Virus record (IMG/VR): IMGVR_UViG_2563366885_000004
Source of the DNA: a virus
Lineage: Duplodnaviria > Heunggongvirae > Uroviricota > Caudoviricetes
Length of the DNA: 15,471 bases
Reading direction: 5' to 3' (one strand)
The position numbers and the translations under genes were made by a program. Positions 1 through 15,195 of this stretch are shown one piece after another; positions within the stretch are counted from its first letter, which is position 1, and every line of letters starts with the position of its first letter. The notes below the pieces were generated by a model. It made no database searches. It worked only from the letters and a program-made list of their open reading frames with translations, and was not told where the DNA came from.

Positions 1-390
1 TTACTCTTTTTTCTCCGTATCTGCATCGGGTTCATCAGCAAATAGCTTGCCCTGCATCCGATCCAGTTCTTCTTTTCTTACCCGCTTAACCACGCTGTAG
101 ACCCACTGAAGCGAAACACCAAATTTGCGGGCCAGTTCGTGGTGGTTGCGTCCGTTAAACTCCCTGAAGATTTCCCGGTCGCGCTGACTGACCTTCCATA
201 CCATGCCCATCGGGAAATAAACGTTTTGCCCGCCCCAGACCTGCATCATTCGGTTCGCGACGGCCTGACCAATCTGGTCGGCAACTTCGGGCTCAATATC
301 AATAATCTCGCGAACGGTCTCAGAGGTATGCTGTGCCAGTTCCACCAGGAGTTCCGGCCCCTTACTTCGAAACTGATTCAGGTCGCTCAT
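1..390 (-). CDS. mor: Mor/C-family middle-operon transcriptional activator
   Basis: 129 aa, the same length as Mu Mor. C-terminal HTH pattern FNGRN..EL...GVS...VY shared with Mu Mor (from memory). Last gene of the leftward early operon; GGGAG RBS 6 nt upstream of ATG at 390. Confidence 0.75.
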   Translation of the reverse strand: MSDLNQFRSKGPELLVELAQHTSETVREIIDIEPEVADQIGQAVANRMMQVWGGQNVYFPMGMVWKVSQRDREIFREFNGRNHHELARKFGVSLQWVYSVVKRVRKEELDRMQGKLFADEPDADTEKKE

Positions 391-814
391 GTTTGACTCC
401 CGCAGCTCTGCGCTGCCACTTCTTCAGTTTCTCAATAACACTGCTTGCCTGTTCAGTACTGAGCCAGCGCAGGGCGCTGATGCCCGTTTCCCGCTTGATC
501 CACCCCGCTAATGCATTTTCTGAACGGTCACGAACAATGCCGGCAGCAGCCATTTCAAGCCATAGCGCACGAATTTTCCTGGACTGCGGATGGTTATCCA
601 GCGGTAAACCGGAGCTGGCTTTTCTGGCTGGTTTAACGCGAAAGCCTTTCTTTTTCATGGATTCCAGCACGCAGTTTAGTTGTGTGGTATCCATTCCTTT
701 GGTTGAGGCTTTACCGGTCAGCCCCTGTAACATCTGGCGGTAGGTGTCTTCATCCATACCCAGTTCATTACGGGCAATATGAATGAGCTGGATAAGACGT
801 TGTTTAGTCATCAT
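362..814 (-). CDS. gemA: GemA-like early protein (Mu gp16 family)
   Basis: Sits immediately upstream of mor, as in Mu. Track ORF runs to 853, but the ATG at 814 has an AAGGAG RBS with 5-nt spacer, so 814 is the preferred start. 3' end overlaps the mor start by 29 nt. Confidence 0.55.
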   Translation of the reverse strand: MMTKQRLIQLIHIARNELGMDEDTYRQMLQGLTGKASTKGMDTTQLNCVLESMKKKGFRVKPARKASSGLPLDNHPQSRKIRALWLEMAAAGIVRDRSENALAGWIKRETGISALRWLSTEQASSVIEKLKKWQRRAAGVKHERPESVSK

Positions 815-1019
815 CGTTGCTCCTTTTACCTGCGCCACCGATATAATCGACATATAAAGGAAGCGCCACAGGCCAGTACAGGAACATCACCGACCAACTA
901 ATCCAGTAGCCGGCACCACTGTAACGTGAATAAAACCCTGAACGGCGGTGCAGTTCAGCAGTACACCAACCGACAAAACAATACCAGAACAGGGCACATA
1001 CAACAGATTCAGCAGTCAT
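804..1019 (-). CDS. Small hydrophobic early protein (about 71 aa, predicted membrane protein)
   Basis: Internal ATG at 1019 of track ORF 804..1175. Trp/Tyr/Phe-rich hydrophobic sequence. Fits the operon frame chain, overlapping the upstream 76-aa gene by 11 nt. Confidence 0.35.
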   Translation of the reverse strand: MTAESVVCALFWYCFVGWCTAELHRRSGFYSRYSGAGYWISWSVMFLYWPVALPLYVDYIGGAGKRSNDDD

Positions 1020-1239
1020 TCTGAATATCCCCCCAACTGATATGAATATTACGGGCAGCAATGACAGGGTCGTTATTCCACCATGCACCTGACATGTATT
1101 TTTCAACCTGTTCGCGTCCGGCAATAACACCAATTGTGATCCCCGGCCTGACGTTCTTAAAAAAGGCGCGGGCAAAAAGGTATCTGGCAGATATTCGGCA
1201 GGCTTTTAATTTCCGGCTTTTACCTGATAGCGTAATCAT
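1009..1239 (-). CDS. Hypothetical small early protein (76 aa)
   Basis: Start codon overlaps the stop of the upstream DUF2786-like gene (ATGA overlap at 1236..1239), indicating translational coupling. Confidence 0.4.
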   Translation of the reverse strand: MITLSGKSRKLKACRISARYLFARAFFKNVRPGITIGVIAGREQVEKYMSGAWWNNDPVIAARNIHISWGDIQNDC

Positions 1240-1919
1240 CTGGCCTCCAGTTTCTGTTGTTCCTGCCCACTGACCGGGCGGTGCAGTCTGACGTTCTGCC
1301 CTTCACGAAACCCCGCATAGCGCGAGGCGTCGCCATTGCGGCTTCTTCCCGGTTTACGCGCCCTGGTGGTTTGCGTCTGCGGGTATTTATGTTCCAGCCA
1401 CTGCTGCATCAGTTCACGTTCGTCATCGGTCAAGGCGAAGGACTGTATTTCACTGATAACGGCCAGCACCCAGCCTTCAGCAAACTGGTCTCCACGGCTG
1501 GTGCGGGTGGCGGTTTTTATTCTTTTGTTCTGTGCACTGATATACTGCTGACGCGCCTTTTTCAGCTGACGGGCCAGCACTTCCCAGGTGTACGCGGCCA
1601 GTGCGGCCCGTTCCCGGTTGCCGTAGAACCCCACACCCGGATATGTGCCGGGGTGAATGATGGAGTTAACACCAAATGCCTCGCGGATGATGTTCATCAG
1701 GCCCAGCATGTAGCGCGGCGGACGGAGGCTGCCTGTCGGCCAGTAGTGACTGATGGTTTCATCAATATCACTCATGGCGATGTCGGAATGTGTGATGCCG
1801 TGAACATCCATCAGTTTACGGGCGCGGCGCAGTGCCAGAGCAGCCTCATTCGGGTTGCCGGATGCTGCCAGCGCCAGCAACTTTTTCAGTTTCTCAATGT
1901 GCTTATCCTGGTCTGTCAT
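1236..1919 (-). CDS. DUF2786-like phage protein (227 aa)
   Basis: N-terminal motif KLKKLLALAASGNPNEAALALRRARKLM resembles the DUF2786 signature as I recall it. ATGA overlap with the upstream gene at 1916..1919. Confidence 0.55.
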   Translation of the reverse strand: MTDQDKHIEKLKKLLALAASGNPNEAALALRRARKLMDVHGITHSDIAMSDIDETISHYWPTGSLRPPRYMLGLMNIIREAFGVNSIIHPGTYPGVGFYGNRERAALAAYTWEVLARQLKKARQQYISAQNKRIKTATRTSRGDQFAEGWVLAVISEIQSFALTDDERELMQQWLEHKYPQTQTTRARKPGRSRNGDASRYAGFREGQNVRLHRPVSGQEQQKLEAR

Positions 1920-2221
1920 TGTTCAGTATCTCCGGTGTACATGACGCCCAGCCGTGCGGCAAGGCGTTCCAGTTTTTTCTGTTTGTGGAAGTCAATCAGC
2001 CGGTCCATTCCCTGAAGGCGCAGCTGCTCTGTCATGATTTCCACGTCTGCCAGCTCTGCCGCGAGGTCACTTTCGCTGCCCTGTCCGTTCAGGTTGCGGG
2101 CGGCACTGGCCGCCAGTTCAGCAGCCTCTTCTGTCAGTTTCAGGGCCTGTGCATCCGGACCGAAACGCTGCAGGGCCAGACGGTAGAGGGCGGTGCGGGT
2201 GAGTTCGGTGTTCCGTGTCAT
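1916..2221 (-). CDS. Hypothetical early protein (101 aa)
   Basis: ORF in the operon chain; ATG confirmed at 2219..2221; acidic, helical-looking sequence. Confidence 0.5.
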   Translation of the reverse strand: MTRNTELTRTALYRLALQRFGPDAQALKLTEEAAELAASAARNLNGQGSESDLAAELADVEIMTEQLRLQGMDRLIDFHKQKKLERLAARLGVMYTGDTEQ

Positions 2222-2230
2222 GCCGCGCCC

Positions 2231-2503
2231 TCAGTGTTTCCGGTCGACGGTGATGTTCAGGCCGCCTTCTGCAGTGGTTTCCACCCGGTACGGCACCTCG
2301 TGCTCTGCCGTGTGGGTGAGTGTGTTCATCAGTACCTGCAGGGCAGCCGCCTTTCCGTTGGTTGCCACAATGGCCTGAGCGGCAATGCTGATTAACGCCG
2401 TCAGGACGTGCTTCACATCGGTGAGGTCGCGGCATTCACACTCGTTGACATAGTGTTCAACAAGGGTTCGGGTGCGCTGTCGTGCTTCCTGTGGGGTAAT
2501 CAT
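2231..2503 (-). CDS. Hypothetical early protein (90 aa)
   Basis: GGGAGG RBS 7 nt upstream of ATG at 2503; ATGA overlap with the upstream zinc-ribbon gene. Confidence 0.5.
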   Translation of the reverse strand: MITPQEARQRTRTLVEHYVNECECRDLTDVKHVLTALISIAAQAIVATNGKAAALQVLMNTLTHTAEHEVPYRVETTAEGGLNITVDRKH

Positions 2504-2694
2504 TGCGCGTCCTCCCTGTCAGGGCGGGAGAATTCCATGACGGGCACGTCCGCCGAAAAATGCTGGCTGCAGTACGGACAGACCAGGGTGACACGTACTG
2601 CAGGTACGTGGTACTTACCGGACATCACGGCGATGGCGCTGTGAAAACGCAGGGCTGTTATATCCCTCTCGCACTGAATACATTTAAATATCAT
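2500..2694 (-). CDS. Small zinc-ribbon protein (64 aa, CxxC ... CxxC)
   Basis: Two Cys pairs (CIQC and CPYC) in a 64-aa ORF. GAGGAG RBS upstream of ATG at 2694. Confidence 0.5.
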   Translation of the reverse strand: MIFKCIQCERDITALRFHSAIAVMSGKYHVPAVRVTLVCPYCSQHFSADVPVMEFSRPDREDAQ

Positions 2695-2791
2695 AATTTA
2701 ATTCTCCTCTGTTTCCGGCGTGCAGAAGCCCACGGCGCTGACGCCGGAATAAAAAAGAAAATGTTTTTATTAAATAATTAACGTGGTGTGT

Positions 2792-3322
2792 TTACTGCAC
2801 ATCCTGCTCAAAAGGAATTATTGAAAAATCCTCAATATCACTTTTTATGGTAATACCGGGAATATTTTTCACGGCGTCCTTTTCATTCAGGATAGCGTCT
2901 TTATTTATTTCCTCTTTTACACGAATAAAGCGCTCAAGCCCCAGACGTCTCAGTAATTCAATAACATTATCCGCCCCACGGATACTGACTGATGGCGGAC
3001 GGTTTCGTCACTGCACCTCGCCGGTGGTGAGGTTAGCGAACTTCACCTTCCCGTTGCCGGTCAGTTCATCACGGTGTGCCTCACACCATGTCTGAATACC
3101 GGACTGCAGTTCGGCCATGCGTTTTTTCAGGCTCTCGGTGAGCGGGGCATAACGTGCGGTGATATCGCCAATGGCGTCATTCATTTCTGTTTCAGCCCTG
3201 ACCAGTTCACGTTGTGCGTCACCGAGTAGTCTGATTCCCTCAATGACCTCTTCACGTGTCCCCGGCACCCAGAGTGCTGCTGCGGCCTTGATACGTTTTG
3301 CACCTTTTGTACTTTTTGCCAT
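2792..3322 (-). pseudogene. gam: Mu Gam-like host-nuclease inhibitor interrupted by one in-frame TGA at 3008..3010
   Basis: Translation of 3008..3322 closely matches the Mu Gam N-terminus (MAK..KRIKAAAA...ETEMNDAI...WCEA.RDELT). The same frame continues after the TGA (RNRPPSVSIRG ... GITIKSDIEDFSIIPFEQ) and matches the Mu Gam C-terminus to a TAA at 2792..2794. The TGA aligns with a Trp in Mu Gam as I recall it. Confidence 0.75.
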
Positions 3323-3349
3323 TTTTTATGATTTCTCCAGTTGTGCTGA

Positions 3350-3619
3350 TTACCACAAAGATTCCGGCCACACGACGCGACAGCCGTGCAGTTCGAAAAC
3401 GCCCTGACGGAAATATCCCCTGTGGTCATGTCCGGTATACAGATAACAGGCCTTTCCCTGCTCAAGCATGCGCATGCAATGCGCACTCCGGGAAACGCGG
3501 ATGACAGGTTTGTTACCCCTGATGGTGATGCTCTGTACATCCGTGTTCGTCGCCTTAAGCGCCATAATGGCTGACTGCACTTTGCTGATTTGCTGGTTGA
3601 TACCTGTGGTGGATTTCAT
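3350..3619 (-). CDS. Hypothetical early protein (89 aa) directly downstream of the B-like gene, where Mu has kil
   Basis: ORF starts 2 nt after the B-like stop. The kil analogy is by position only, not by sequence. Confidence 0.45.
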   Translation of the reverse strand: MKSTTGINQQISKVQSAIMALKATNTDVQSITIRGNKPVIRVSRSAHCMRMLEQGKACYLYTGHDHRGYFRQGVFELHGCRVVWPESLW

Positions 3620-3621
3620 TA

Positions 3622-4788
3622 TTAAACCCCTTTGACAACGTCAGCGTTGACCTGTGGAACCCCGATTTCAGCGGCCAGATTCATGGCGGCTATTACCAGG
3701 TTACTGACGGCCAGCGGATACAGCAGGCTGACCATATTTTTACGGTGACTTCCCGGATTGCTCAGGCGGGCACGTATGGCATCCACTGCACCGGCGTCCA
3801 TAATGTCCGTCAGCTGTTTACCGGCCCGTTGCAGTTTGAACGTCAGAAATTCTTCAAGGTTATTGTCCAGAGGCAGAAGTTCGACCACCTCACAGCGCTG
3901 AACGACTTCACGGACTTCCATATTGCGTTCAGACAGTTTTGTCGCCAGTTCCGGCTGGCCAATCAGCACGATGGACAGCAGTTTTTTGAAACCGGACTCC
4001 AGCTCAAAAAAGCGTTTGAGGTGTTTCAGTGTCGGAATGGGCAGACTGTGGGCCTCCTCAATCACCAGAACGTGGCTGAACCCCGCCTGGCTGCTGTCTT
4101 TCAGGACGCGATGCAACTGGCGAAAACGGGCGTCCTGACTGCGTCTGATGCTTTCCAGTGGTGCGATGGTACTGATAATGGCTTCGGCAATAGCTGCTGC
4201 CTTCAGGGTTTTCCCTTTCACATCGTTGTCTTCCATAGCGATGATGTATGGCTCGATAACAATTACCGGCGCATTCTCGCGGTTGATACGTTCAGTCAGG
4301 TCGCGGCGCAGCGTGGATTTACCCGCACCGGACTCACCGATGACGGCCATAAACCCACCATGACGGGCTGTCTGGTACAGCGCCTCACGCACGTAGCGAA
4401 TGTCCGGGGTGGTGAACACATCATCAGAACCCTGCATGGCTTCGTCGGCGAACGGGTCACGGAAAAGACCAAACGCTTTTTTGGTTGCTGGAAATAACAC
4501 CTGTTTTTTGAGTAACATATTCTCTTCCTCACTGAGGCTCGTTTTATCTGTGGTACCCGCTGTACGGGGCGTGGCCGCGCCCTGTACAGCATCAAAACTC
4601 TTCGTTGTATCAATCCCCTGACTTTCCAGCCAGGACGCAAGACGCCGGCGCACTTCTCCGGGGCTGGTGCGGGGCCACGCGTTATGATTCACAATCTGGG
4701 CCAGCGTGGCCTCAGAAACATCGACAGCTCTCGCCACCACCGCCTGTGGAATACGGGCCTCTTTCAGTTGCTGCTTCAGTACCAGCAT
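3622..4788 (-). CDS. Transposition/replication AAA+ ATPase (MuB-like, ExeA/TniB-like)
   Basis: N-terminal HTH region, Walker A VIGESGAGKST, Walker B-like VLVIEEAH and a VLIGQPEL motif. Lies directly downstream of the transposase. Start placed at ATG 4788 (GAGGAGG RBS) rather than the track start at 4827. Confidence 0.8.
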   Translation of the reverse strand: MLVLKQQLKEARIPQAVVARAVDVSEATLAQIVNHNAWPRTSPGEVRRRLASWLESQGIDTTKSFDAVQGAATPRTAGTTDKTSLSEEENMLLKKQVLFPATKKAFGLFRDPFADEAMQGSDDVFTTPDIRYVREALYQTARHGGFMAVIGESGAGKSTLRRDLTERINRENAPVIVIEPYIIAMEDNDVKGKTLKAAAIAEAIISTIAPLESIRRSQDARFRQLHRVLKDSSQAGFSHVLVIEEAHSLPIPTLKHLKRFFELESGFKKLLSIVLIGQPELATKLSERNMEVREVVQRCEVVELLPLDNNLEEFLTFKLQRAGKQLTDIMDAGAVDAIRARLSNPGSHRKNMVSLLYPLAVSNLVIAAMNLAAEIGVPQVNADVVKGV

Positions 4789-4798
4789 GTTTCCCTCC

Positions 4799-6568
4799 TC
4801 AGTTGCCGTTAACAATGCTGATAACACTGCTGCGGGCCGGTGTGGTCAGCGTGGCCATGACTTCATCCAGTGCGGCTTCCGGTACGCCGTCCGGGTACTG
4901 TGCCGTTAACTGGCGGTAATGTTCCGGCGTCCAGGTAAGGCCGTCGGCGCTGAACTTATCGCGCAGGGCTTTCGCGGCCTCCACATGAGTCATGGGACGT
5001 TGTTCAGTGCGCGGCCCGCGTACGTCAGAGGCCTGACCACGCTTCGGCATATAGGCCGGAAGTGTGGTGTCGTCGATATGTTTATACGGGTCAAGCCGCC
5101 CGCCGAACGGCAGCGCCTTCGCCTTGCGTGCGGCGGCTGCATCTGCGGCGTTGTCTGTACCGGTAACCAGCGCTTCGGTTTCTTTTGCCGCCATCTGTGC
5201 CGGGGTTTCCGGCAGGGCTTTGTAACTTTCGCCAAATACCGCCGCGCCTTCAGCAAAGCCAAACTCGTTCTTTCTGACCTCTTCGACCAGGAAGAACGTC
5301 TCGTGGCCGTCCTCACCGGTCAGAACCACCTGTGCCACATCGCTGCGCCATGGGTTACGGGTAATCATCAGTTTTTCACCAACCAGTACGCCCGGTACCG
5401 TTGATACGTCAAATTCAGTGCCCCGGAACGAGACACGAAGTTTTGGCGTGACTTTGCGGAGTTCTGGTGCCGCCACAGCCAGTTCACGACATACCTCAAC
5501 GGGAGGCGCTTTTTTCAGCTGCTCAGCAGTAATCTTCAGCCAGATATCCGTGCGGGTTTTACCGTGGCGGCTGTGAACAGCCGTGGCGTTAAAGTGGCTG
5601 CGCCATTTCGCGGCCAGCGCGTTGAGTTCTTCCAGACTGTGAACCGGCCGGAACTTCAGACCCGGCTCCAGCTTGCGTTCGATAATGTCCCGCGCCTTTT
5701 CCACCTGTCCGGTGGCGCGGGCGTTATGCGGCTTGTGCGCTATCAGGTCGATGCCCAGTGAGCGGCACATGTTTTTCGTCATACCCGCGGTGTTTGCCGA
5801 GCCGGGGTCGAGATAGAGTATTTTCGGCACGCCGTGCAGCACGTCTGCGCCGCCACGCTCCTGCATGGCGTTGATAAGCACAGAACACAGGTTCTCACCG
5901 GATTCCGCGCCCGTCACATACTCAACGTAAATCCAGCCGCTGGCATGGTCGGTAATCTCGTAACTCCACACGCGGTCACTGGCGATACGGGCAAGGTTAG
6001 CGGGCTTGTTCTTGTAGAACTTCGCGCTGTCCATCACCTGCAGCCCTTTATGTCCATTGCTCAGGTAGTAAAGCGTGCAGAGTGAGGCGTCAATCTGCCA
6101 GACATGATTGGGATGCAGACTGGCCACTTCGGTATGTGGTGCAGGGGCATCCAGTTGTTCCGGGTGCAGGCCATAGTTACGCAGAGCACGGCTGATGGCA
6201 TCTTCAGACAACGGGAAAAACTCACCGGTGGTTTCATCTGTTCTGCCTGCGGTGATAAAGCCGTTAGCCCGCAGGGTTTCCACTGCATCTGCGATGGAAT
6301 AGAGACGCTTACCGTTCTTGCGGGTGGCCTCACGCAGTGTGGCAGATATCAGCGCGGCTTCGTCGCGGGTCAGGGCGCTGCGCCCGGCATCGGCGCGTTT
6401 TTTGCGTTTATCAGTCACAGAGACCTCCTTCAGCCTGCGCAGCAGAGTGGCGCGGGACATGCCAAGTTCAGCACAGGCAGCGTCGTATATTGCACCGCGT
6501 TTACCATGCCCCGCGTCACGTGCCGCGCGGGCGACATAAACCAGTCGTTCAGTCAGGGCAGCATTCAT
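4799..6568 (-). CDS. DDE transposase (retroviral-integrase superfamily; resembles Tn552/TnsB/BcepMu TnpA type more than MuA)
   Basis: 589 aa with N-terminal HTH and candidate catalytic residues in HVWQIDAS, YLDPGSANT and QVEKARDIIE. GGAGG RBS upstream of ATG at 6568. Followed by the AAA+ ATPase partner gene. Confidence 0.85.
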   Translation of the reverse strand: MNAALTERLVYVARAARDAGHGKRGAIYDAACAELGMSRATLLRRLKEVSVTDKRKKRADAGRSALTRDEAALISATLREATRKNGKRLYSIADAVETLRANGFITAGRTDETTGEFFPLSEDAISRALRNYGLHPEQLDAPAPHTEVASLHPNHVWQIDASLCTLYYLSNGHKGLQVMDSAKFYKNKPANLARIASDRVWSYEITDHASGWIYVEYVTGAESGENLCSVLINAMQERGGADVLHGVPKILYLDPGSANTAGMTKNMCRSLGIDLIAHKPHNARATGQVEKARDIIERKLEPGLKFRPVHSLEELNALAAKWRSHFNATAVHSRHGKTRTDIWLKITAEQLKKAPPVEVCRELAVAAPELRKVTPKLRVSFRGTEFDVSTVPGVLVGEKLMITRNPWRSDVAQVVLTGEDGHETFFLVEEVRKNEFGFAEGAAVFGESYKALPETPAQMAAKETEALVTGTDNAADAAAARKAKALPFGGRLDPYKHIDDTTLPAYMPKRGQASDVRGPRTEQRPMTHVEAAKALRDKFSADGLTWTPEHYRQLTAQYPDGVPEAALDEVMATLTTPARSSVISIVNGN

Positions 6569-8111: not shown

Positions 8112-8528
8112 ATGAATAACAAAGATGTTAACGCTGTGCTTTCCCGGTTAATGTCACTATTCCAAGCAGAGAATGATAGTGAGTTGGCAAGAGCGCTTAA
8201 CGTCAATAGGCAGACACTTGCAAGTTGGAGGAAGCGTGATTCTGTGCCTTATGCAATTTGCATAAACATCGCAGAAGAAAAGGGGGTTTCTTTAGATTGG
8301 TTGCTAACAGGTAGAAAACAAGGTTTATCAAAAGAAGTAGACGTAACTCCGACGCAAGTGCAGTTTAGCCAAGCTGACCTTACTATGCTTGAGCTTTTAA
8401 AGCAGCTAGACCCCGAGGTTCGTAACGATCTTCTGCGAGGCGCTGCGGAAAAACAGCGAGTGATCGAGATGGAAAAACAACTGAAGGAATTATCCGCAAC
8501 GATTGAGCGGTTAAAAAATGTGGGTTAA
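8112..8528 (+). CDS. Prophage repressor, CI-type HTH without a peptidase domain
   Basis: LARALNVNRQTLASWRKRDSVPYAICINIAEEKGVSLDWLLTG matches the phage CI-repressor HTH pattern. No S24 peptidase motifs. Divergent from the early operon. Track start is GTG 8097; ATG 8112 is an alternative. Confidence 0.75.
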   Translation: MNNKDVNAVLSRLMSLFQAENDSELARALNVNRQTLASWRKRDSVPYAICINIAEEKGVSLDWLLTGRKQGLSKEVDVTPTQVQFSQADLTMLELLKQLDPEVRNDLLRGAAEKQRVIEMEKQLKELSATIERLKNVG

Positions 8529-9544: not shown

Positions 9545-9941
9545 TTTATTGATTGGATGTGGGATTGGTTTTCTCTACTGGTTCAAGTTGCCCCATATGC
9601 CAGTAGCCGCAATCCCAAACTTCATGACTACATTGTCCAGTGTCTTTGCAACGTTGTTAGGTTTTATTATTACAGCAATTGCACTACTTGCATCATTGCT
9701 TGATAAACCGTTACTTAAAAACATGCAAAAAACCGGACATTACAAGCGTCTGATGACCGATGCATTCTACACTTGCTTAGTTTTGCTAGTGTTGGTGTTG
9801 ACATGTTTGATTGGGTTGATGCTGCAAAGTAAGCATCAAGAGATTGTAGCCGCTATTCTCATTGGGCTTGTTGTTATGTCTATGTTGTGTTTATTACAAA
9901 CAGGTAGGCGATTATTCAATATAATCAAAGTGATATCATAA
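9504..9941 (+). CDS. Four-TM membrane protein (about 145 aa), candidate RexB-like effector
   Basis: Four hydrophobic segments. Start at ATG 9504 (GGGAGAG RBS) overlaps the upstream gene's 3' end, indicating coupling. TTLSSVFATLLGFIITAIALL resembles lambda RexB ATLSSYAGTMIAILIAAL, from memory. Size is close to RexB (144 aa). Confidence 0.45.
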   Translation: MHILEKMNSALLLSLLIGCGIGFLYWFKLPHMPVAAIPNFMTTLSSVFATLLGFIITAIALLASLLDKPLLKNMQKTGHYKRLMTDAFYTCLVLLVLVLTCLIGLMLQSKHQEIVAAILIGLVVMSMLCLLQTGRRLFNIIKVIS

Positions 9942-9993: not shown

Positions 9994-10761
9994 CTACTCT
10001 AAATTACTTACAATAAGTTCGCGCCGTAGTGTTCCCTTTCCTGCAAGACTGTAGTTGACCTTCACACAGTGAATGTTCAGACCGTTAAAAACCTGCCGCA
10101 TTTCCGGGATATCGTTGACCGATATAATCATCTTTCCTCTGATGCACCGGGCCAGCTCTGCCAGCCGCGAGTAGTTCCCTTCAGGAAAATCCACACCATA
10201 GCCTTCCGTACCCAGGTACGGTGGGTCGCAGTAGAACAGCGTGTGCGGACGATCATAACGCTCAATGCACTGTTGCCAGTCCATGTGTTCTATGACTGTT
10301 CTGGAAAGCCGCAGGTGTGCCGCTGACAGTTCTTCTTCAATACGCAGCAGGTTGAAGCGTGGCGGGGATGTGGTGGAGGTACCGAAGCTGTGCTCTGCCA
10401 CCTTGCCGCCAAACGCCTGCTTCTGAAGGTAGTAAAACCGTGCCGCACGCTGGATATCCGTCAGTGTTTCTTCCGGGGTGATCTGCAGCCATTTGTAGAT
10501 CTGACGGCTGACCAGCGCCCATTTGAACTGGCGGACAAATTCTTCCAGGTGATGCTTTACCACCCGGTACAGATTCACCAGTTCACCGTTGATATCATTG
10601 ATGACTTCGATCTTGCCGGGTGTCTTAAGAAAATAGAGCGCTGCTGCCCCACAAAACGGCTCCACATAACATTCATGCGCCGGAAACAGCGGCAGAATGT
10701 GTTTTGCAAGGCGGCGTTTGCCACCAATCCACGGCACGATGGGTAATGTCTGCATTTTCAT
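9994..10761 (-). CDS. dam: DNA N6-adenine methyltransferase (Dam-like, DPPY motif)
   Basis: IVPWIGGKRRL N-terminus, FCGAAALYF (motif I-like) and FYCDPPYLGTEGY (DPPY catalytic motif). Track ORF extends to 10851, but the Dam-like N-terminus begins at the Met codons at 10761/10755. Confidence 0.85.
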   Translation of the reverse strand: MKMQTLPIVPWIGGKRRLAKHILPLFPAHECYVEPFCGAAALYFLKTPGKIEVINDINGELVNLYRVVKHHLEEFVRQFKWALVSRQIYKWLQITPEETLTDIQRAARFYYLQKQAFGGKVAEHSFGTSTTSPPRFNLLRIEEELSAAHLRLSRTVIEHMDWQQCIERYDRPHTLFYCDPPYLGTEGYGVDFPEGNYSRLAELARCIRGKMIISVNDIPEMRQVFNGLNIHCVKVNYSLAGKGTLRRELIVSNLE

Positions 10762-10865
10762 AATCTGTAAGCCTTTTACAATTATTAAAAAATATGGCAG
10801 TCTGGTCAGGTCTCGCGAGACTGACTGAACCTTGGTCGGCTCACAGCGCATTCCTGTGGGGCGAT

Positions 10866-10951: not shown

Positions 10952-11167
10952 TTATCCGGGGCGATTTTCTGACCTTATCCGGTCCAGGGCATAAGTAATA
11001 CCTTCTGCAAAAACAGAAGTATCAAACTGCTTTTGTATTCCCTGAAAATGAAAAGCGGCACGACAGACACTCAGTTCTCCGCGGTATAACCGGATAATAT
11101 CTTCCAGAACATTGTTCACTGCTTCAGCACGGCGCTGATGTTCTGTTAACGTTAATCGGGGATTCAT
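10952..11167 (-). CDS. Hypothetical 71-aa protein
   Basis: Strong AAGGAG RBS with 6-nt spacer upstream of the ATG (complement of 11165..11167). No family recognised. Confidence 0.5.
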   Translation of the reverse strand: MNPRLTLTEHQRRAEAVNNVLEDIIRLYRGELSVCRAAFHFQGIQKQFDTSVFAEGITYALDRIRSENRPG

Positions 11168-11570
11168 GATGCACTCCTTAAATGATGATTTTTATGTACT
11201 CACCGGCAAAATATTCTGCCGATTACTGAACACGCATCCGGCACCTCAGGTTTTGATTTATTCTGGTTTTTTCGATATCCCGGACCAGGTTGATCACGAC
11301 CAGAAAAAGTGCCGGTGTTTTATTGATACGCTGATATGGCTTCGGGATAACAGCTATATTCGTTACTCTCAGTTGCTGGCTGTGGGAGCGGCTGATGTCG
11401 TCCTCACGGAAAAAACGCTCTGTCTGCTCAATGCCATGCCGACCTTTCTGCAGCCCCGGCCCGTACCATTTAAAGAGTCACTTCTGGATGCAGTAAAAAC
11501 CGGTGAAAATGCAGTCATCGCTGAATGCGTATCCCGGATTATGCGTTACGTGTTTAATGAACGTAAGTGA
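11166..11570 (+). CDS. Hypothetical 134-aa protein (possible degenerate receiver-like fold; speculative)
   Basis: Codon usage looks host-like (CTG, CCG, GGC third positions). Weak GGGGA RBS. Its start codon overlaps the start codon of the divergent 71-aa gene. It fills an otherwise 378-bp noncoding gap. Confidence 0.4.
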   Translation: MMHSLNDDFYVLTGKIFCRLLNTHPAPQVLIYSGFFDIPDQVDHDQKKCRCFIDTLIWLRDNSYIRYSQLLAVGAADVVLTEKTLCLLNAMPTFLQPRPVPFKESLLDAVKTGENAVIAECVSRIMRYVFNERK

Positions 11571-12274
11571 GGTTTATCCGCTGTCTGCATAATCCCGATA
11601 GCCAGTGCGAGGGGAAGTAATTCCGGGGAAACTCTTTCAAACAGCGATGCCCATTCTCCTCTCGCCATCACTCTGTCCAGCCCGCCCCCCAACTGCATTT
11701 CAGCAATCTTCCTGATTTCCCGGAACAACGCCGCTTTGATCTCTTCATGCTCAGCTTTATTTTCCGGTGTCAGAAGGTATTCGTCGAAGAACCGGGGAGG
11801 CTGGTTAATCGGGATGTGTTCCTGTTTGCCGTACTTCGGGGACGAACAACATTCTGTTGACTGACCAGTGAGTTTACGTAACTCCTTCATGAGCAGCTCC
11901 TGATCGTAAACTGTCATCAGTGCCGCAATGGTGGCATGCAGTGCATCGGGCAGTATCCAGGGTTGCCGGCCCGTGGGGCATATAACATCCAGCAGCTCAT
12001 TCGTCCGACAGATACGCTCCTCGCCGTATGACAACAGGCCCTGTCCCGTGTATTCCTCCAGCCTGATCACTGTGCCAGCCCGTGGTTTCTGCCATGTGCT
12101 CAGATCATCCCCACTCATACGGCGCTCACCGTCCACGTCTGCGGCGTCGACAATGACGCTGTTTCCGAATTCCTGTTTCACCACTTCCTCTATCCGCGCC
12201 AATATGTAACTTTTACCGCTGCCCACAGGACCGGACACGGTGACAGTGATGACCGGATTCAGTGTCTGCGTCAT
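11546..12274 (-). CDS. P-loop NTPase (Walker A GPVGSGKS) with an uncharacterised C-terminal domain, 242 aa
   Basis: AGAGGAG RBS 8 nt upstream of ATG at 12274. Walker A sits at residues 15-22 within a compact N-terminal domain. The C-terminal roughly 150 aa match no family I recognise. Confidence 0.65.
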   Translation of the reverse strand: MTQTLNPVITVTVSGPVGSGKSYILARIEEVVKQEFGNSVIVDAADVDGERRMSGDDLSTWQKPRAGTVIRLEEYTGQGLLSYGEERICRTNELLDVICPTGRQPWILPDALHATIAALMTVYDQELLMKELRKLTGQSTECCSSPKYGKQEHIPINQPPRFFDEYLLTPENKAEHEEIKAALFREIRKIAEMQLGGGLDRVMARGEWASLFERVSPELLPLALAIGIMQTADKPHLRSLNT

Positions 12275-12404
12275 ATCGTATTCTCCTCTGTGAATAATTC
12301 ATCGTTTATCCTGCACATCCCGTATCCCCGGCTCTCTTAACGCGCTTTAAAATCCTTCGCGCCCTGTATTTGTGATGCTGTCTCCACCAGATAAGGAGAC
12401 ACAC

Positions 12405-12755
12405 ATGAAAAACCTGAAAAAATTCATTCCCCCTGTTAAAAAACCTCGCCTCAGCGGCTGGCTGCTGACCTCAGTGCTGTTGCTGGGCACCATCGCTCTG
12501 GTCTCACCACAGCAGCTGCCTGTTGTGATCTACAAGCTGGCACTCATCACGCTGGCAGCAGTGCTGGGTTACTGGCTTGACCGTTCGCTCTTCCCCAAAG
12601 CCCGTCCTGGTCAGTACCTGAAACATGACGACAGGCTGATGGCTGAAGGGCGTTTCCCGGTACAGACCGGCCTTCACCTGGTGTTTTCTGCTGCGTTAAT
12701 TCGCCGTGCACTGATTGTTGCAGCGGTCTGCCTGGCTGTTGCGATGGGGCTTTAA
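12405..12755 (+). CDS. Putative holin or lysis-associated membrane protein (116 aa, about 3 TM)
   Basis: AAGGAG RBS upstream of ATG at 12405. Three hydrophobic segments. Lies immediately upstream of, and coupled to, the endolysin gene (stop 12753..12755, next ATG at 12758). Confidence 0.5.
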   Translation: MKNLKKFIPPVKKPRLSGWLLTSVLLLGTIALVSPQQLPVVIYKLALITLAAVLGYWLDRSLFPKARPGQYLKHDDRLMAEGRFPVQTGLHLVFSAALIRRALIVAAVCLAVAMGL

Positions 12756-12757
12756 TC

Positions 12758-13498
12758 ATGAACTGGCCGCAGATCACCTGGATTGTATGCATGTCCCTGA
12801 AACTGGCTTTCGAAGCCTTTCGGGTCTTCATCAGAACCGAACGCCCGTCAGTCCGCGCCGGGACCTTTCTGGTTCATATGGCATGGGTATTCTTTGTCGC
12901 AATGTTGCTCTGGTGTGGCGGCTTTTTCAGCCAGGCATGCGCAGCACAACCTCCGCAGGCTGCGCTGCAGTATCGCGATGATGTGATCCGTAATGCCCGG
13001 CTTGAATGGGGACTGTCTGCGCCGGTGGCCGATTTCGCCGCGCAACTGCATCAGGAAAGCGGCTGGCGACCTGATGCGATCTCGCCGGCTGGCGCTCAGG
13101 GACTGGCGCAGTTCATGCCTGCCACTGCCGACTGGATAAGCCAGTTGATACCGATGCTGAGCAGTCGTGAGCCGTTTAATCCGGCATGGGCTATCCGGGC
13201 GCTGGTCAGCTATGACCGCTGGCTGTGGCAGCGTGTCAGCGCCGCCAGTGACTGCGAGCGTATGGCCATGACACTGTCGGGCTATAACGGTGGTCTGGGC
13301 TGGGTACAACGGGACAGGCGGCTTGCATCACAGAAAGGTCTGGACAGCACCCGCTGGTTCGGACATGTCGCCACGGTGAATGCCGGACGCAATGCGGCCA
13401 GCTGGCGGGAGAACCGCCATTATCCGCAGCGCATCCTGCGCGAACTGGCACCGCGATATCTCACATGGGGAGGCAGCAGTTGTGTGGCATCTGGTTAA
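12758..13498 (+). CDS. Endolysin, lytic transglycosylase (SLT domain)
   Basis: Motif QESGWRPDAISPAGAQGLAQFMPATA fits the SLT catalytic Glu-Ser region. A hydrophobic segment MAWVFFVAMLLWCGGFF precedes the domain (alternative start at 12878). Confidence 0.8.
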   Translation: MNWPQITWIVCMSLKLAFEAFRVFIRTERPSVRAGTFLVHMAWVFFVAMLLWCGGFFSQACAAQPPQAALQYRDDVIRNARLEWGLSAPVADFAAQLHQESGWRPDAISPAGAQGLAQFMPATADWISQLIPMLSSREPFNPAWAIRALVSYDRWLWQRVSAASDCERMAMTLSGYNGGLGWVQRDRRLASQKGLDSTRWFGHVATVNAGRNAASWRENRHYPQRILRELAPRYLTWGGSSCVASG

Positions 13499-14132
13499 AA
13501 AGCTGCCGTGGCGCGGCATTCTGCTGGCCATTCTTATCAATGCCTTTCTGGTCGGCCTGTATGCCATGGGATACAGAAGTGGTCATGACTCTGCAAAGCG
13601 TGACGGTGATACCGCGCTCAGTCAGTTGCAGTCAGCATTTGACGCGTACAAAACGGAGCAGGCAACGCTTGAGAATGCTGCGCTGCGGGCCTGGGCCAGA
13701 CGGTATCAGGAGCAGGTGGCCGCCGGGCAGCGGGCTGAAGCCGGTTATCTTGAGCAGATTGCTCAACTGGAGAGCCGGAATAAACAACTACAGGGGCAAA
13801 TTAACGATGTCACACAGCGCTGGATTGATGAAAAAGGTAAGAGCCATCCCATTGAGTGCGTGTTTACTCGCGGTTTCGTGCGCCAGTACAACGCCGCACT
13901 CGGATATGACAACGCATCCGTCGACACCGGTCATTCAGACTCAGTTGCCGCCGCTGGCACCCGCTCTGGCACAGCGACCGGGCAACCTGAAACCACTGAC
14001 ACCCGGTTACGCGATTCGGGTGTCTCCCAGCGTGACGTTCTCGCCAACATCATCGACAACGCAGGACAATGTCGTCGCTGGCGGAACCAGATAAACGCGT
14101 TACTGGATGAACGGGAAGGATTACAGAAATGA
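13482..14132 (+). CDS. Rz-like i-spanin (type II membrane protein with coiled-coil periplasmic domain)
   Basis: GTG start at 13482 with a GGGGAGG RBS, overlapping the endolysin stop. N-terminal TM segment LPWRGILLAILINAFLVGLYAM, followed by a Gln/Ala/Glu-rich helical region. Confidence 0.6.
   Translation: MWHLVKKLPWRGILLAILINAFLVGLYAMGYRSGHDSAKRDGDTALSQLQSAFDAYKTEQATLENAALRAWARRYQEQVAAGQRAEAGYLEQIAQLESRNKQLQGQINDVTQRWIDEKGKSHPIECVFTRGFVRQYNAALGYDNASVDTGHSDSVAAAGTRSGTATGQPETTDTRLRDSGVSQRDVLANIIDNAGQCRRWRNQINALLDEREGLQK
13828..14094 (+). CDS. Rz1-like o-spanin lipoprotein embedded in the +1 frame of Rz
   Basis: MKKVRAIPLSACLLAVSC signal-like N-terminus with Cys, followed by a Pro-rich mature region (TPVIQTQLPPLAPALAQRPGNLKPLTPG). 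Lies wholly inside the Rz gene. Alternative ATG at 13807. Confidence 0.45.
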   Translation: MKKVRAIPLSACLLAVSCASTTPHSDMTTHPSTPVIQTQLPPLAPALAQRPGNLKPLTPGYAIRVSPSVTFSPTSSTTQDNVVAGGTR

Positions 14133-14455
14133 CACTGCAGGTTGAATTCTGGACGGTGGTGAGTTTTCTGCTCACCTTCATGGGGTTTGTGGGAGGGCTC
14201 GCCAAATGGTTGTTCAGTAAAACAGAAGAACGCCAGGCGGCACGATTCGCCTCCCTTGAACAGGCCCTGCAACAATCCGCCTCCAACTGGGGCGAGCTGG
14301 AAAAAGAATTTATGCGATTTAAAGCGGATTTACCGCTGAATTATGTCCGTCGAGAGGATTATATCCGTGGCCAGACAGTCATTGAGGCCAAACTGGACGC
14401 GCTTTATAACAAACTGGAAGTGGTACAGCAGTACCGCAATACCGGAGGTCAATAA
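14129..14455 (+). CDS. Late-operon membrane protein (N-terminal TM plus coiled coil; Mu gp25-position)
   Basis: ATGA overlap with the Rz stop. GGAAGGA RBS. TM segment VVSFLLTFMGFVGGLAKWLF. Confidence 0.5.
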   Translation: MTLQVEFWTVVSFLLTFMGFVGGLAKWLFSKTEERQAARFASLEQALQQSASNWGELEKEFMRFKADLPLNYVRREDYIRGQTVIEAKLDALYNKLEVVQQYRNTGGQ

Positions 14456-14766
14456 TGGTCGATATTACCCGGGTACGCCGCGAATCCCTGCGCTGGAGTC
14501 TGCTGGTTGCCCTGAACAAGACCCGCCCTTACACCGCCAGCGAGACGCTGCTGCTGGATGTGTCCCGTGCCATCTACCCGGACACCACACCGCTGGAACT
14601 GCGACGCGAACTGGATTATCTGGCTGACCGTAAAATGGTTGATCTGGAGAAAAAACCTTCTGGCGACTGGTTTGCTGACCTGACCCGCCTCGGCGTAGAC
14701 CTGGTGGAATACACCGTGGAATGTGGTCCGGGTATTGCCCGCCCGGAAAAGTACTGGAGTGAATAA
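14455..14766 (+). CDS. Late-operon protein (Mu gp26-position), 103 aa
   Basis: GGAGG RBS. TAATG overlap with the upstream stop. No family recognised. Confidence 0.5.
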   Translation: MVDITRVRRESLRWSLLVALNKTRPYTASETLLLDVSRAIYPDTTPLELRRELDYLADRKMVDLEKKPSGDWFADLTRLGVDLVEYTVECGPGIARPEKYWSE

Positions 14767-15195
14767 TGGCCAGACGCAGCACAATAGAAAAGCTGCCGGA
14801 AGATGTGCGCCGCTGGCTTGAACGGGCGCTGACTGAATCCGGCTTCAGCGGGTATAACGAGCTGGAGTCCCTGCTGCGTGAGCGGGGGTACGTCATCAGC
14901 AAATCCGCTATCCATCGCTATGGACAGAAGATTGAGCGCCGCTATGGTGCTATCCGTGCGGCAACAGAAGCGGCCCGCATGCTGACCGAAGGCGCAGCAG
15001 ACGATCAGGATGCGCGTTCGGAGGCTGTGATAGCCCTTATTCAGACCGAGCTGTTCGAGAGTATTGTCCAGTTGCAGGAGGCGGAAGAAGGCGAAGTCGA
15101 TCCTAAAGAACGCGTGGCCCTGCTGTCGAAGGTGGCGAAGAATGTGGCTACGCTGTCCCGCGCGTCCGTCAACCTCAAAAAGTTCCAGTCTGAAG

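What the first reader, a model, noticed from the sequence alone, without database searches (positions are those of the whole stretch)
1..15195. Divergent (BcepMu-like) rather than Mu-like genome architecture
In Mu, every gene except the repressor is on one strand and late genes follow mor. Here the early operon runs leftward to mor at the window edge while the lysis and gp25-27-like genes run rightward from a central region. The transposase looks more like the Tn552/TnsB-type than MuA, yet Gam, Mor and Ner are clearly Mu-like. This points to a mosaic transposable phage, apparently from an enterobacterial-type host judging by composition.
Basis: partly seen in the sequence, partly recalled or inferred. 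Interest (0 to 1): 0.5.

Follow-up and report, generated by a model that had tools for sequence, protein, structure and literature searches.

The report
BcepMu-type transposable prophage of E. coli
The window is the left 15 kb of a common E. coli prophage that copies itself by transposition and is built like the Burkholderia phage BcepMu, not like phage Mu; this layout has been described before, so the finding is correct but ordinary.

Summary
Window 1-8023 is a leftward early operon: Ner/gp16-like, HTH, DUF3102, rve transposase, AAA+ ATPase, gam, GemA, Mor. From 8112 a CI-type repressor runs rightward. From 12405 a lysis cassette (holin, SLT endolysin, Rz/Rz1) and gp25-, gp26- and gp27(TerS)-like genes also run rightward.

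Gene order and strand match BcepMu genes 1-27, with 34-71% amino-acid identity. Against Mu, only Mor/C, GemA and Gam give BLAST matches; TerS and gp26 are linked to Mu only through shared Pfam/PHROG families. MuA and MuB show no pairwise similarity.

It is one element, not two lying head to head. In complete E. coli genomes the whole roughly 38-kb prophage has TG...CA ends with BcepMu-like subterminal repeats and is flanked by 6-bp target duplications at two independent sites. No end-like sequence lies inside the window.

- gam is a pseudogene (W105 to TGA).
- "Ner" is only weakly Mu-like.
- The target duplication is 6 bp, not 5 bp.
- Position 15196 is not a phage boundary. An IS21-family element interrupts terS there.

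This architecture was published for BcepMu and B3, and close relatives are already filed in GenBank as Bcepmuvirus.

Side observation: the two genes downstream of the repressor (8651-9941) form a fold-level RexA/RexB-like pair that is currently annotated only as DUF6731.

The parts
1..390 (-). mor: a Mor/C-family late-transcription activator, last gene of the leftward early operon. It is the ortholog of BcepMu gp1.
   Evidence: Pfam Mor 1.3e-43. 54% identity to BcepMu gp1; 30% to Mu Mor and 32% to Mu C.
362..853 (-). gemA (Mu gp16 family). RefSeq places the start at 811.
   Evidence: Pfam GemA 4e-41. 44% identity to BcepMu gp2 and 36% to Mu GemA.
804..2694 (-). Small early genes: 804-1019, 1009-1239, a DUF2786/DUF7168 protein at 1236-1919, a MazG-like ORF at 1916-2221, 2231-2503 and 2500-2694.
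   Evidence: Pfam and PHROG hits; RefSeq annotation.
2792..3322 (-). gam pseudogene (Mu-type host-nuclease inhibitor). Codon 105 is TGA instead of TGG, at 3008-3010.
   Evidence: Translation shows the internal stop. 62% identity to Mu Gam. The gene is intact in the ST131 copy, which differs at this codon. RefSeq marks it 'internal stop'.
3350..3619 (-). Conserved small early gene (phrog_2041).
3622..4827 (-). AAA+ transposition ATPase (ExeA/AAA_22 type), the functional counterpart of MuB and the ortholog of BcepMu gp8.
   Evidence: Pfam AAA_22 3.8e-20. 59% identity to BcepMu gp8. phrog_296 'DNA transposition protein', which also holds MuB. No BLASTP similarity to MuB.
4799..6568 (-). DDE (rve) transposase, ortholog of BcepMu gp9. 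Candidate catalytic residues D160, D254 and E290, inferred from invariance and typical DDE spacing.
   Evidence: Pfam rve only. 68% identity to BcepMu and 57% to B3. No MuA similarity. D160, D254 and E290 are invariant in a 23-sequence alignment. Best, but weak, fold matches are IstA and TnsB.
6572..7483 (-). DUF3102 protein, ortholog of BcepMu gp10.
   Evidence: 40% identity
7494..7802 (-). Winged-HTH regulator, ortholog of BcepMu gp12.
   Evidence: 34% identity
7799..8023 (-). First gene of the leftward operon: a small HTH protein in the position of Ner/Cro (BcepMu gp16 family).
   Evidence: NCBIfam BcepMu_gp16 7e-7, sub-threshold. Pfam HTH_35 0.007, sub-threshold. 33% over 42 aa to Mu Ner. 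phrog_769, the Mu Ner family, 5.4e-5.
8024..8111 (.). Divergent control region. It holds a perfect 20-bp palindrome, TGAATAAATGTACTTATTCA, at 8062-8081. Extra TTATTCA/TGAATAA half-sites overlap both start codons (8017-8023 and 8113-8119). These are candidate operators.
   Evidence: Read directly from the sequence; repeat finder families D1, I1-I3. Function is inferred.
8112..8528 (+). CI-type prophage repressor.
   Evidence: Pfam Phage_CI_repr 1.2e-17; PHROG transcriptional repressor families.
8651..9544 (+). RexA-like protein. Its relatives carry DUF6731.
9480..9941 (+). RexB-like membrane protein with four hydrophobic segments. The likely start is 9504, giving 145 aa. It overlaps the end of the upstream gene.
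   Evidence: Translation and hydropathy scan. A conserved partner, 39% identical, sits next to DUF6731 genes in lambdoid prophages.
9994..10851 (-). D12-class DNA adenine methylase. RefSeq places the start at 10761.
   Evidence: Pfam MethyltransfD12 1.2e-29; PADLOC MTase_II.
10952..12274 (.). Three conserved genes of unknown function on alternating strands: 10952-11167 (-), 11166-11570 (+) and 11546-12274 (-, with an N-terminal P-loop GPVGSGKS).
   Evidence: phrog_2266 and phrog_3787; translation; 99% conserved in the ST131 copy.
12345..12354 (+). Candidate late-promoter element CTTTAAAATC, about 50 bp upstream of the holin start.
   Evidence: The motif SWTTAAWATC recurs upstream of four further rightward genes in the full prophage. 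BcepMu has TAAAGCCGATTAAAAGACC before both its holin and gp32. The motif was derived from these same sequences, so its role is inferred.
12405..12755 (+). Holin
   Evidence: Pfam Holin_2-3 1.5e-41; 50% identity to BcepMu gp21.
12758..13498 (+). SLT-domain endolysin
   Evidence: Pfam SLT 1.8e-14; 55% identity to BcepMu gp22.
13482..14132 (+). Rz (i-spanin) with an N-terminal transmembrane helix. Rz1 (o-spanin; lipobox LAVSC; proline-rich) is embedded at 13828-14094 in the +1 frame.
   Evidence: Translations; coordinates and hydropathy. Both frames match the BcepMu Rz and Rz1 frames.
14129..14766 (+). gp25-like (14129-14455) and gp26-like (14455-14766) genes.
   Evidence: 52% and 57% identity to BcepMu gp25 and gp26. 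The gp26-like protein shares phrog_436 with Mu gp26, but the gp25-like protein does not share Mu gp25's family.
14766..15196 (+). terS (Mu gp27 family), truncated after about 143 codons by an IS insertion.
   Evidence: Pfam Phage_Mu_Gp27 7.3e-44. 71% identity to BcepMu gp27. The intact gene in L001 continues differently after this point.
15197..15471 (-). End of an ISEc62-family IS21-like element (terminal TGTCAACGCC..., 3' part of istB). It is not part of the phage.
   Evidence: 99% identical to IS21-like elements at many E. coli sites. The istB/istA annotation names ISEc62.

Best explanation
The window is the left arm of a single BcepMu-type transposable myovirus prophage of Escherichia coli. 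The prophage is 38,239 bp in the fully identical reference copy.

Lysogeny switch. A central switch holds a CI-type repressor reading rightward and a small Ner/Cro-like HTH gene reading leftward, with palindromic candidate operators between them.

Leftward early operon. It encodes the transposition machinery: a DDE/rve transposase of the BcepMu-B3 lineage and an AAA+ target-capture ATPase. It also encodes accessory early functions (Gam, GemA) and, last, one Mor/C-family activator. That activator is expected to act in trans.

Rightward late operons. The activator is expected to switch these on. They start with the lysis cassette and the gp25-27 packaging genes in the window, and continue into P2-like head and tail genes beyond it.

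Movement. The element inserts through its TG...CA ends, which carry paired GATAAATG-type repeats 23 bp apart, and makes 6-bp target duplications.

This copy is decayed. gam carries a nonsense codon and terS is split by an IS21-family element.

What is shown: gene content, order, strand, orthology, the ends, the duplications and the two lesions. What is inferred: operator function, Mor-dependent late promoters and replicative transposition.
For: - Collinearity with BcepMu genes 1-27 at 34-71% amino-acid identity, same strands.
- 97% nt identity to phage PhiKM, filed under Bcepmuvirus, and 87% to Klebsiella phage KP12.
- 443 of 5426 complete E. coli genomes hold at least 80% of the window as one contiguous block.
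- The rest of the prophage in L001/L007 carries terL, portal, Mu F/G-like head genes and a P2-like sheath/tube/baseplate.
- Ends mapped by comparing occupied sites, other insertion sites and an empty site. The left end reads TGATTAGACTTGAGATAAATG and the right end reads ...CATTTATCGCGCGGCGCATCA.
- 6-bp duplications CTTCTC (nagE/SLC13 site) and TTCTTC (ycaL/aroA site) flank the entire element.
- The end design matches BcepMu's own ends.
- No end-like motif lies in the window.
- Published descriptions match: BcepMu has two divergent clusters, a Tn552-IS1604-type transposase and TG/CA termini (PMC2771037, PMC2628397). B3-like phages have an inverted early operon and transposition proteins different from Mu's (PMC5977238).
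Against: - The centre is not a clean divergence point: dam and two other genes in 9994-12274 point leftward inside the 'rightward' arm.
- The consensus promoter scan found no sigma-70-like sites in the 8024-8111 switch region and no excess over shuffles overall, so the promoters are unproven.
- The left end of the prophage lies 163 bp outside the window, and the right end about 23 kb outside it. The ends and duplications are therefore read from other genomes, not from this one.
- Nucleotide identity to BcepMu itself is too low for megablast. 'Bcepmuvirus' is GenBank's label for PhiKM, not a tested genus assignment.
- This copy probably cannot produce particles, because terS is interrupted.
Confidence: 0.93

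Rival explanations
1. Two separate mobile elements lie head to head: a Tn552-like transposon carrying the early genes, and an unrelated defective phage carrying the lysis and structural genes. Their junction would lie in 8528-12400.
For: - The central segment has lower GC (0.42 against 0.54-0.57).
- The central segment is replaced in a sister prophage.
- Gene strands alternate in 9994-12274.
Against: - No sequence resembling the true ends (TGAT...GATAAATG) occurs anywhere in the window; only chance matches of 11 nt or less were found.
- The 6-bp target duplications flank the whole 38-kb unit at two independent sites, and an empty site shows a clean single insertion.
- The same arrangement is found in the plaque-forming phage BcepMu.
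- The replaced segment is bounded by 99%-identical phage DNA on its right and by homologous, more diverged (78%) phage DNA on its left. This is the pattern of an immunity-module swap.
Confidence: 0.02
2. It is a true Mu-like (Muvirus-type) prophage whose early region has been inverted by a recent rearrangement or an assembly error.
For: - Mor, GemA and Gam give BLAST matches to Mu, with Gam at 62%.
- TerS carries the Pfam Phage_Mu_Gp27 domain and the gp26-like protein shares phrog_436 with Mu gp26.
- PHROG remote-homology clusters place the transposase with MuA (phrog_310) and the ATPase with MuB (phrog_296).
Against: - There is no pairwise similarity to MuA, MuB or the Mu c repressor.
- The lysis genes differ from Mu's.
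- The tail module is P2-like.
- The same orientation is found in hundreds of independent complete genomes and in BcepMu.
- The duplication is 6 bp, not Mu's 5 bp.
Confidence: 0.02
3. It is a B3-like transposable siphovirus (the Pseudomonas B3 group) rather than a BcepMu-like myovirus. Both groups share the inverted early operon and the same transposase lineage.
For: - The transposase is 57% identical to the B3 transposase, which sits in the same minus-strand position in B3 records.
- B3-like phages are described as having an inverted early operon (PMC5977238).
Against: - Identity is higher to BcepMu (68%).
- The lysis cassette and gp25-27 are BcepMu orthologs.
- The remainder of the prophage encodes a tail sheath, tail tube and P2-type baseplate, which means a contractile tail.
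Confidence: 0.03

Closest known systems
Burkholderia phage BcepMu (NC_005882; genus Bcepmuvirus) and its published family of prophages in other Proteobacteria
   Same: - Two divergent clusters with mor at the extreme left.
- Orthologous Mor, GemA, AAA+ ATPase, rve transposase, gp10 and gp12.
- Holin, SLT endolysin and Rz/Rz1 followed by gp25, gp26 and TerS.
- P2-like tail.
- TG...CA ends with paired GATAWWT repeats about 23 bp apart.
(PMC2771037)
   Different: - Only 34-71% amino-acid identity, with no megablast-level DNA identity.
- The E. coli phage has Mu-type gam, a dam methylase block and, in this immunity type, a RexAB-like pair.
- The E. coli phage has a tail-fibre invertase with inverted fibre segments, which BcepMu is reported to lack.
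- tblastn found no window counterpart of BcepMu gp3-gp7, nor of gp13-gp15 and gp18-gp20.

Escherichia phage PhiKM (PQ738613), Klebsiella phage KP12 (OM835952) and the prophage in E. coli ST131
   Same: The same phage lineage. Nucleotide identity is 97% (PhiKM) and 87% (KP12) over the shared parts, with the same gene order.
   Different: - Different immunity module: window 7803-10036 is replaced in the ST131 copy, and PhiKM and KP12 cover only 79% and 60% of the window.
- gam is intact in the ST131 copy.
- Two extra small early genes are present in the ST131 and PhiKM copies.
- terS is not interrupted by an IS in the ST131 copy.

Escherichia phage Mu (NC_000929)
   Same: - A transposable temperate myovirus.
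- Mor/C, GemA and Gam (62%) give direct BLAST matches.
- The gp26 and gp27/TerS families are shared through PHROG and Pfam.
- TG...CA ends.
- An invertible tail-fibre segment in the full prophage.

   Different: - In Mu the early, middle and late genes all read rightward; here the early operon is inverted.
- No pairwise similarity to MuA, MuB or c, and Ner similarity is marginal.
- One Mor/C-type gene was found in the window, against two (mor and C) in Mu.
- 6-bp rather than 5-bp duplication.
- SLT endolysin and a P2-like tail.
Pseudomonas phage B3 group
   Same: Inverted early operon, and the same transposase lineage at 57% identity (PMC5977238).
   Different: B3 is a siphovirus with different structural genes. 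The prophage here has a contractile-tail module.
Lambda RexA/RexB exclusion system (applies to window 8651-9941 only)
   Same: - An overlapping or adjacent membrane protein of about 145 aa with four hydrophobic segments.
- Both sit directly downstream of a CI-type repressor on the same strand.

   Different: - No detectable sequence similarity: hhalign probability 3.4%, and BLASTP E 0.47 for the membrane partner.
- Neither Pfam RexA nor RexB is matched; relatives are filed as DUF6731.
- The same pair also occurs as a stand-alone insert near the Q antiterminator in lambdoid prophages.

Membership tests
BcepMu-type transposable phages | Two divergent gene clusters: the early/transposition genes on the bottom strand ending in mor at the left end, and the lysis and morphogenesis genes on the top strand | tested here: met
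   ORF and annotation layout compared with the BcepMu record and its published description (PMC2771037).
BcepMu-type transposable phages | rve-type transposase orthologous to BcepMu gp9 (the 'Tn552-IS1604' type), paired with an ExeA-like AAA+ ATPase (gp8) | tested here: met
   68% identity to gp9 and 59% to gp8. Pfam rve and AAA_22.
BcepMu-type transposable phages | 5'-TG...CA-3' termini with subterminal repeated transposase-binding-type sites | tested here: met
   Ends mapped in two E. coli genomes plus an empty site. GATAAATG sits at positions 14 and 37 of both ends, as in BcepMu. The ends lie outside the window.
BcepMu-type transposable phages | Lysis cassette of holin, SLT endolysin and Rz/Rz1, followed by gp25, gp26 and TerS (gp27) | tested here: met
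BcepMu-type transposable phages | P2-like contractile tail module | tested here: met
   RefSeq annotation of the identical prophage lists sheath, tube, tape measure, gpU/X/D, and baseplate V/W/J/I. This module is outside the window.
BcepMu-type transposable phages | Replication by transposition, with random host DNA attached to packaged genomes | not testable with these tools
   Indirect evidence only: different insertion sites in different genomes, each flanked by duplications.
Mu-like phages (Muvirus) | MuA-type transposase and MuB | tested here: not met
   No tblastn or BLASTP similarity. No MuA-specific Pfam domain. MuA is absent from the top 50 fold matches, although that model is poor. 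Only PHROG remote clusters join them.
Mu-like phages (Muvirus) | All genes except the repressor transcribed in one direction, with mor followed by C and the late genes | tested here: not met
Mu-like phages (Muvirus) | 5-bp target-site duplication (figure taken from general knowledge of Mu) | tested here: not met
   6-bp duplications at two sites.
Tn552/TnsB-type DDE transposases | DDE core followed by a beta-barrel domain, closer in fold to TnsB than to MuA | tested here: inconclusive
   The AF2 model is poor (pLDDT 59) and the catalytic core is modelled below pLDDT 50. A confident beta-rich segment follows the core at residues 369-430. Foldseek ranks IstA and TnsB first, but with TM scores of about 0.1. 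A sequence profile finds no transposase chain in the PDB (only a marginal hit to a retroviral integrase, E 0.79). No Tn552 sequence was available to compare directly.
Lambda RexAB exclusion system (window 8651-9941) | Sequence membership in Pfam RexA (PF15969) and RexB (PF15968) | tested here: not met
   No Pfam hit for either protein. hhalign probability 3.4%. BLASTP E 0.47.
Lambda RexAB exclusion system (window 8651-9941) | RexA two-domain fold | tested here: met
   [not shown]
Lambda RexAB exclusion system (window 8651-9941) | A four-helix membrane partner of about 144 aa immediately downstream, with both genes downstream of the CI repressor | tested here: met
Lambda RexAB exclusion system (window 8651-9941) | Excludes superinfecting phage | not testable with these tools
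   Needs plaque assays.

The most novel reading that the evidence does not exclude
The main finding holds nothing new. The most novel reading left open concerns the two genes downstream of the repressor (8651-9544 and about 9504-9941). They may form a sequence-unrecognisable RexA/RexB-type exclusion or switch-modulating system. That would give the DUF6731 family its first functional assignment. It would also show that Rex-type modules move between transposable and lambdoid prophages of enterobacteria.
Probability: 0.5. Interest if true: 0.4.

Novelty: already known. Interest (0 to 1): 0.15.

Why it matters
The main finding changes little. BcepMu-type organisation, its non-MuA transposase and its spread beyond Burkholderia have been in the literature for years (PMC2771037, which cites the 2004 BcepMu paper). 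Close relatives of this prophage are already deposited as Bcepmuvirus.

Practical value:
- About 8% of complete E. coli genomes (443 of 5426) carry most of this window.
- The prophage's exact ends and its 6-bp duplication are now stated.
- This copy can be labelled defective.

The RexAB-like pair is the only part that could open a new experiment.

Tried and rejected
- Two elements head to head. Rejected: no end-like sequence in the window, and the duplications flank the whole unit.
- MuA/MuB homology. Rejected at pairwise level.
- Mu Ner homology. Only marginal. The protein matches the BcepMu gp16 family better, though still below threshold.
- Sigma-70 promoter and terminator scan of 7700-12500. 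No excess over shuffles and nothing in the switch region, so uninformative.
- Transposase structure. The MSA was shallow (all sequences at least 68% identical), the model was poor (pLDDT 59), and the fold matches have TM scores of about 0.1. A profile search of PDB sequences found no transposase chain. The 'TnsB-type' claim therefore stays inconclusive.
- PADLOC scan of the central genes. Only the methylase matched.
- Sequence-level link of DUF6731 to RexA. None.
- Literature search for DUF6731. No papers.
- The B3 genome paper (PMC516594) is not held. The BcepMu JMB 2004 paper was not looked up, so I could not check BcepMu's published duplication length.
- Loci fetched several at a time were not all copied to the Python sandbox, which cost several repeat fetches.

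Full report
**What the window is.** A megablast of the whole window against complete E. coli genomes gives 100% identity over 1-15196 to several chromosomes. In all, 443 of 5426 genomes hold at least 80% of it. Among deposited phages, the best match is Escherichia phage PhiKM (97%, taxonomy Bcepmuvirus), followed by Klebsiella phage KP12 and Escherichia phage Phi06_2974 B at about 87%. Every match stops at 15196. The last 275 bases belong to an IS21-like element of the ISEc62 family (istB on the minus strand). It has inserted into the small-terminase gene, and the uninterrupted gene in the reference copy reads differently from 15197 onward. So the finding's right-hand limit is an IS junction, not a property of the phage. 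The host guess of an enterobacterium is correct.

**Checking the observation.**
- The ORF list and the RefSeq annotation of the identical copy show an unbroken run of minus-strand genes from 8023 down to 1.
- These genes are: a 74-aa HTH protein, a winged-HTH regulator, a DUF3102 protein, an rve transposase, an AAA_22 ATPase, a small ORF, gam, five small or DUF genes, GemA and Mor (Pfam and PHROG).
- On the plus strand lie a CI-type repressor (8112-8528) and two further genes (8651-9941).
- After a mixed block come the holin, an SLT endolysin, Rz with embedded Rz1, two small genes and TerS of the Mu gp27 family.
- The mixed block 9994-12274 (dam -, 71 aa -, 134 aa +, 242 aa P-loop -) shows that the centre is not a simple divergence point.
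- Overall the described layout is real.

**Comparison with BcepMu and Mu.** I translated each window gene and ran tblastn against the two phage genomes, then read the hits against the BcepMu and Mu annotations.
- Against BcepMu the hits are collinear and on matching strands. Identities: Mor 54%, GemA 44%, ATPase 59%, transposase 68%, gp10 40%, gp12 34%, holin 50%, endolysin 55%, Rz and Rz1 weak but in the correct two frames, gp25 52%, gp26 57%, TerS 71%.
- Against Mu only Mor (30% to Mor, 32% to C), GemA (36%) and Gam (62%) score.
- Direct BLASTP of the transposase against MuA, and of the ATPase against MuB, finds nothing.
- tblastn of the transposase against all phage records finds 69 records, listed under BcepMu-like, B3-like and a few other phages. 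No Mu record appears among the 60 listed.
- Pfam sees only an rve core, and NCBIfam gives weak IS481 and IS21 hits.
- PHROG's remote-homology clusters do place the transposase with MuA and the ATPase with MuB. The proteins are therefore very distant relatives rather than unrelated.
- An AlphaFold model built from 23 close homologs was poor (pLDDT 59). Its best Foldseek matches were IstA and TnsB, and MuA was not in the top 50. With TM scores near 0.1, I treat the 'TnsB-type' label as consistent but not demonstrated.

- I first located the real ends in the identical copy in strain FDAARGOS_1258. I compared its flanks with other insertion sites and with an empty site in strain UPEC_U013.
- I then repeated the mapping in ST131 strain 5506, where the prophage sits between ycaL and aroA.
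- The element begins TGATTAGACTTGAGATAAATG and ends CATTTATCGCGCGGCGCATCA.
- It is 38,239 bp in FDAARGOS_1258.
- It is flanked by 6-bp direct repeats: CTTCTC at one site and TTCTTC at the other. The second site resolves a 2-bp ambiguity at the first.
- Both ends carry GATAAATG-type repeats at positions 14 and 37. BcepMu's own ends have the same design.
- Searches of the window for this design, and blastn-short with both ends, return only chance-level matches.
- The duplications flank the entire unit, so it moved as one piece. The head-to-head rival is rejected.
- The left end lies 163 bp beyond window position 1.

**Corrections to the reading.**
- Gam is strongly Mu-like but is a pseudogene here. 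Codon 105 is TGA where the ST131 copy has TGG, and RefSeq flags it too.
- The 'Ner' candidate (7799-8023) matches Mu Ner at 33% over 42 residues, with a pairwise E of 5e-4. It falls below threshold for Pfam HTH_35 and for the NCBIfam 'BcepMu gp16 family'. Its position supports a Ner/Cro role, but 'clearly Mu-like' is too strong.
- The gp25-like protein is a BcepMu gp25 ortholog but does not share Mu gp25's family.
- The duplication is 6 bp, not the 5 bp expected for Mu.

**Mosaicism.** I aligned the window to the ST131 copy.
- Identity is 96-99% across 1-6559 apart from one small gap (828-980), and 99% across 10037-15196.
- Identity is only 78% across 6682-7802.
- There is no similarity at all across 7803-10036. 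That segment holds the Ner-like gene, the repressor and the two genes after it.
- This low-GC module (0.42) occurs in only 23 of 5426 genomes.
- It is an immunity-module swap of the kind known for Mu and D108 (the Mu/D108 comparison is from my own knowledge).
- The full prophage also has a recombinase and inverted tail-fibre fragments at its right end. BcepMu is reported to lack such a system (PMC2771037, PMC2628397).

**How it probably works.**
- Between the divergent Ner-like and repressor genes lies a perfect 20-bp palindrome, TGAATAAATGTACTTATTCA (8062-8081).
- Further half-sites overlap both start codons. These are candidate operators.
- A motif SWTTAAWATC lies about 50 bp upstream of the holin start, at 12345-12354.
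- The same motif recurs before the scaffold/protease gene, a tail gene and gpW in the full prophage. A reverse-strand copy lies between terS and terL.
- BcepMu has an exact 19-nt repeat, TAAAGCCGATTAAAAGACC, before its holin and before gp32.
- I infer that the single Mor/C-type protein made at the end of the leftward operon activates these rightward promoters in trans.
- The motif was derived from the same sequences in which I counted it, so the enrichment is not independent evidence. The generic promoter scan was uninformative.

**Relation to published knowledge.** The two-cluster organisation, the non-MuA 'Tn552-IS1604' transposase and the terminal CA dinucleotides of BcepMu, and the existence of related prophages in other bacteria, are described in PMC2771037 (which cites the 2004 BcepMu paper). 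The 5'-TG...CA-3' termini of BcepMu-related prophage elements are described in PMC2628397. The inverted early operon and different transposition proteins of B3-like phages are described in PMC5977238. Bcepmuvirus prophages in E. coli ST131 and in gut isolates are mentioned in 10.1101/2022.05.07.487787 and PMC12629997. The finding is therefore a correct recognition of a known kind.

**Side observation.**
- The 297-aa protein at 8651-9544 has no Pfam hit itself, but its relatives are DUF6731.
- The overlapping ORF that follows encodes about 145 aa with four hydrophobic segments.
- The same pair recurs in lambdoid prophages of Salmonella and Scandinavium, next to the Q antiterminator gene and on the opposite strand. 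There the membrane partner is 39% identical to the window's.
- An AlphaFold model of the 297-aa protein (pLDDT 75.5, pTM 0.73) has lambda RexA as its top PDB match by Foldseek (E 1.1e-7).
- Sequence methods see nothing.
- The position, directly downstream of a CI-type repressor, mirrors cI-rexA-rexB in lambda.
- This supports a Rex-like pair at the level of fold and synteny. Function is untested.

Noticed in passing
[not shown]
   Followed up: yes
L013-L016 (Scandinavium and Salmonella lambdoid prophages), e.g. L015 5001-6282: The same DUF6731 gene plus a 144-aa membrane-protein gene occurs as a stand-alone insert between antiterminator Q and an N6/N4 methylase or the lysis genes. It lies on the opposite strand to its neighbours, so the pair moves between unrelated prophage types.
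   Followed up: partly
window 3008-3010: gam carries a nonsense codon (TGG to TGA, W105*). The ST131 copy of the prophage has the intact gene.
   Followed up: yes
window 15196/15197-15471: An ISEc62-family IS21-like element (istB end) has inserted into terS. With the gam lesion, this makes the copy probably defective. The other IS junction and the rest of the prophage are outside the window.
   Followed up: yes
window 7803-10036: A low-GC (0.42) immunity module holding the Ner-like gene, the repressor and the Rex-like pair. It has no similarity to the corresponding segment of the ST131 sister prophage. It is present in only 23 of 5426 complete E. coli genomes, against 443 for the prophage backbone.
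   Followed up: partly
window 8006-8129: A perfect 20-bp palindrome, TGAATAAATGTACTTATTCA (8062-8081), lies between the divergent regulator genes. Matching half-sites overlap both start codons, and the first 18 nt of the two genes are inverted copies of each other. These are candidate operators.
   Followed up: partly
window 12345-12354; L001 32328, 36812, 42729; L007 1448: The motif SWTTAAWATC sits upstream of the holin gene and of three other rightward late genes, with a reverse-strand copy between terS and terL. BcepMu has an exact 19-nt repeat containing GATTAAAAG before its holin and gp32. This is a possible Mor-dependent late-promoter element, but the motif was derived from the same sequences.
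   Followed up: partly
L001 16838 and L007 7183 (outside the window); L009 366 and 37413: The prophage ends are TG...CA with GATAAATG-type repeats at positions 14 and 37 of both ends. The target duplication is 6 bp (CTTCTC, TTCTTC), not the 5 bp of Mu.
   Followed up: yes
L007 5339-7105 (right end of the reference prophage, outside the window): A serine recombinase gene lies next to inverted, partial tail-fibre and fibre-assembly genes. This looks like a Mu G-segment-like host-range switch, which BcepMu is reported to lack.
   Followed up: no
window 9994-12274: A conserved block on alternating strands inside the 'rightward' arm: a D12 Dam methylase (-), a 71-aa ORF (-), a 134-aa ORF (+) and a 242-aa protein with an N-terminal P-loop, GPVGSGKS (-). 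None has a counterpart in BcepMu, and apart from the methylase their functions are unknown.
   Followed up: no
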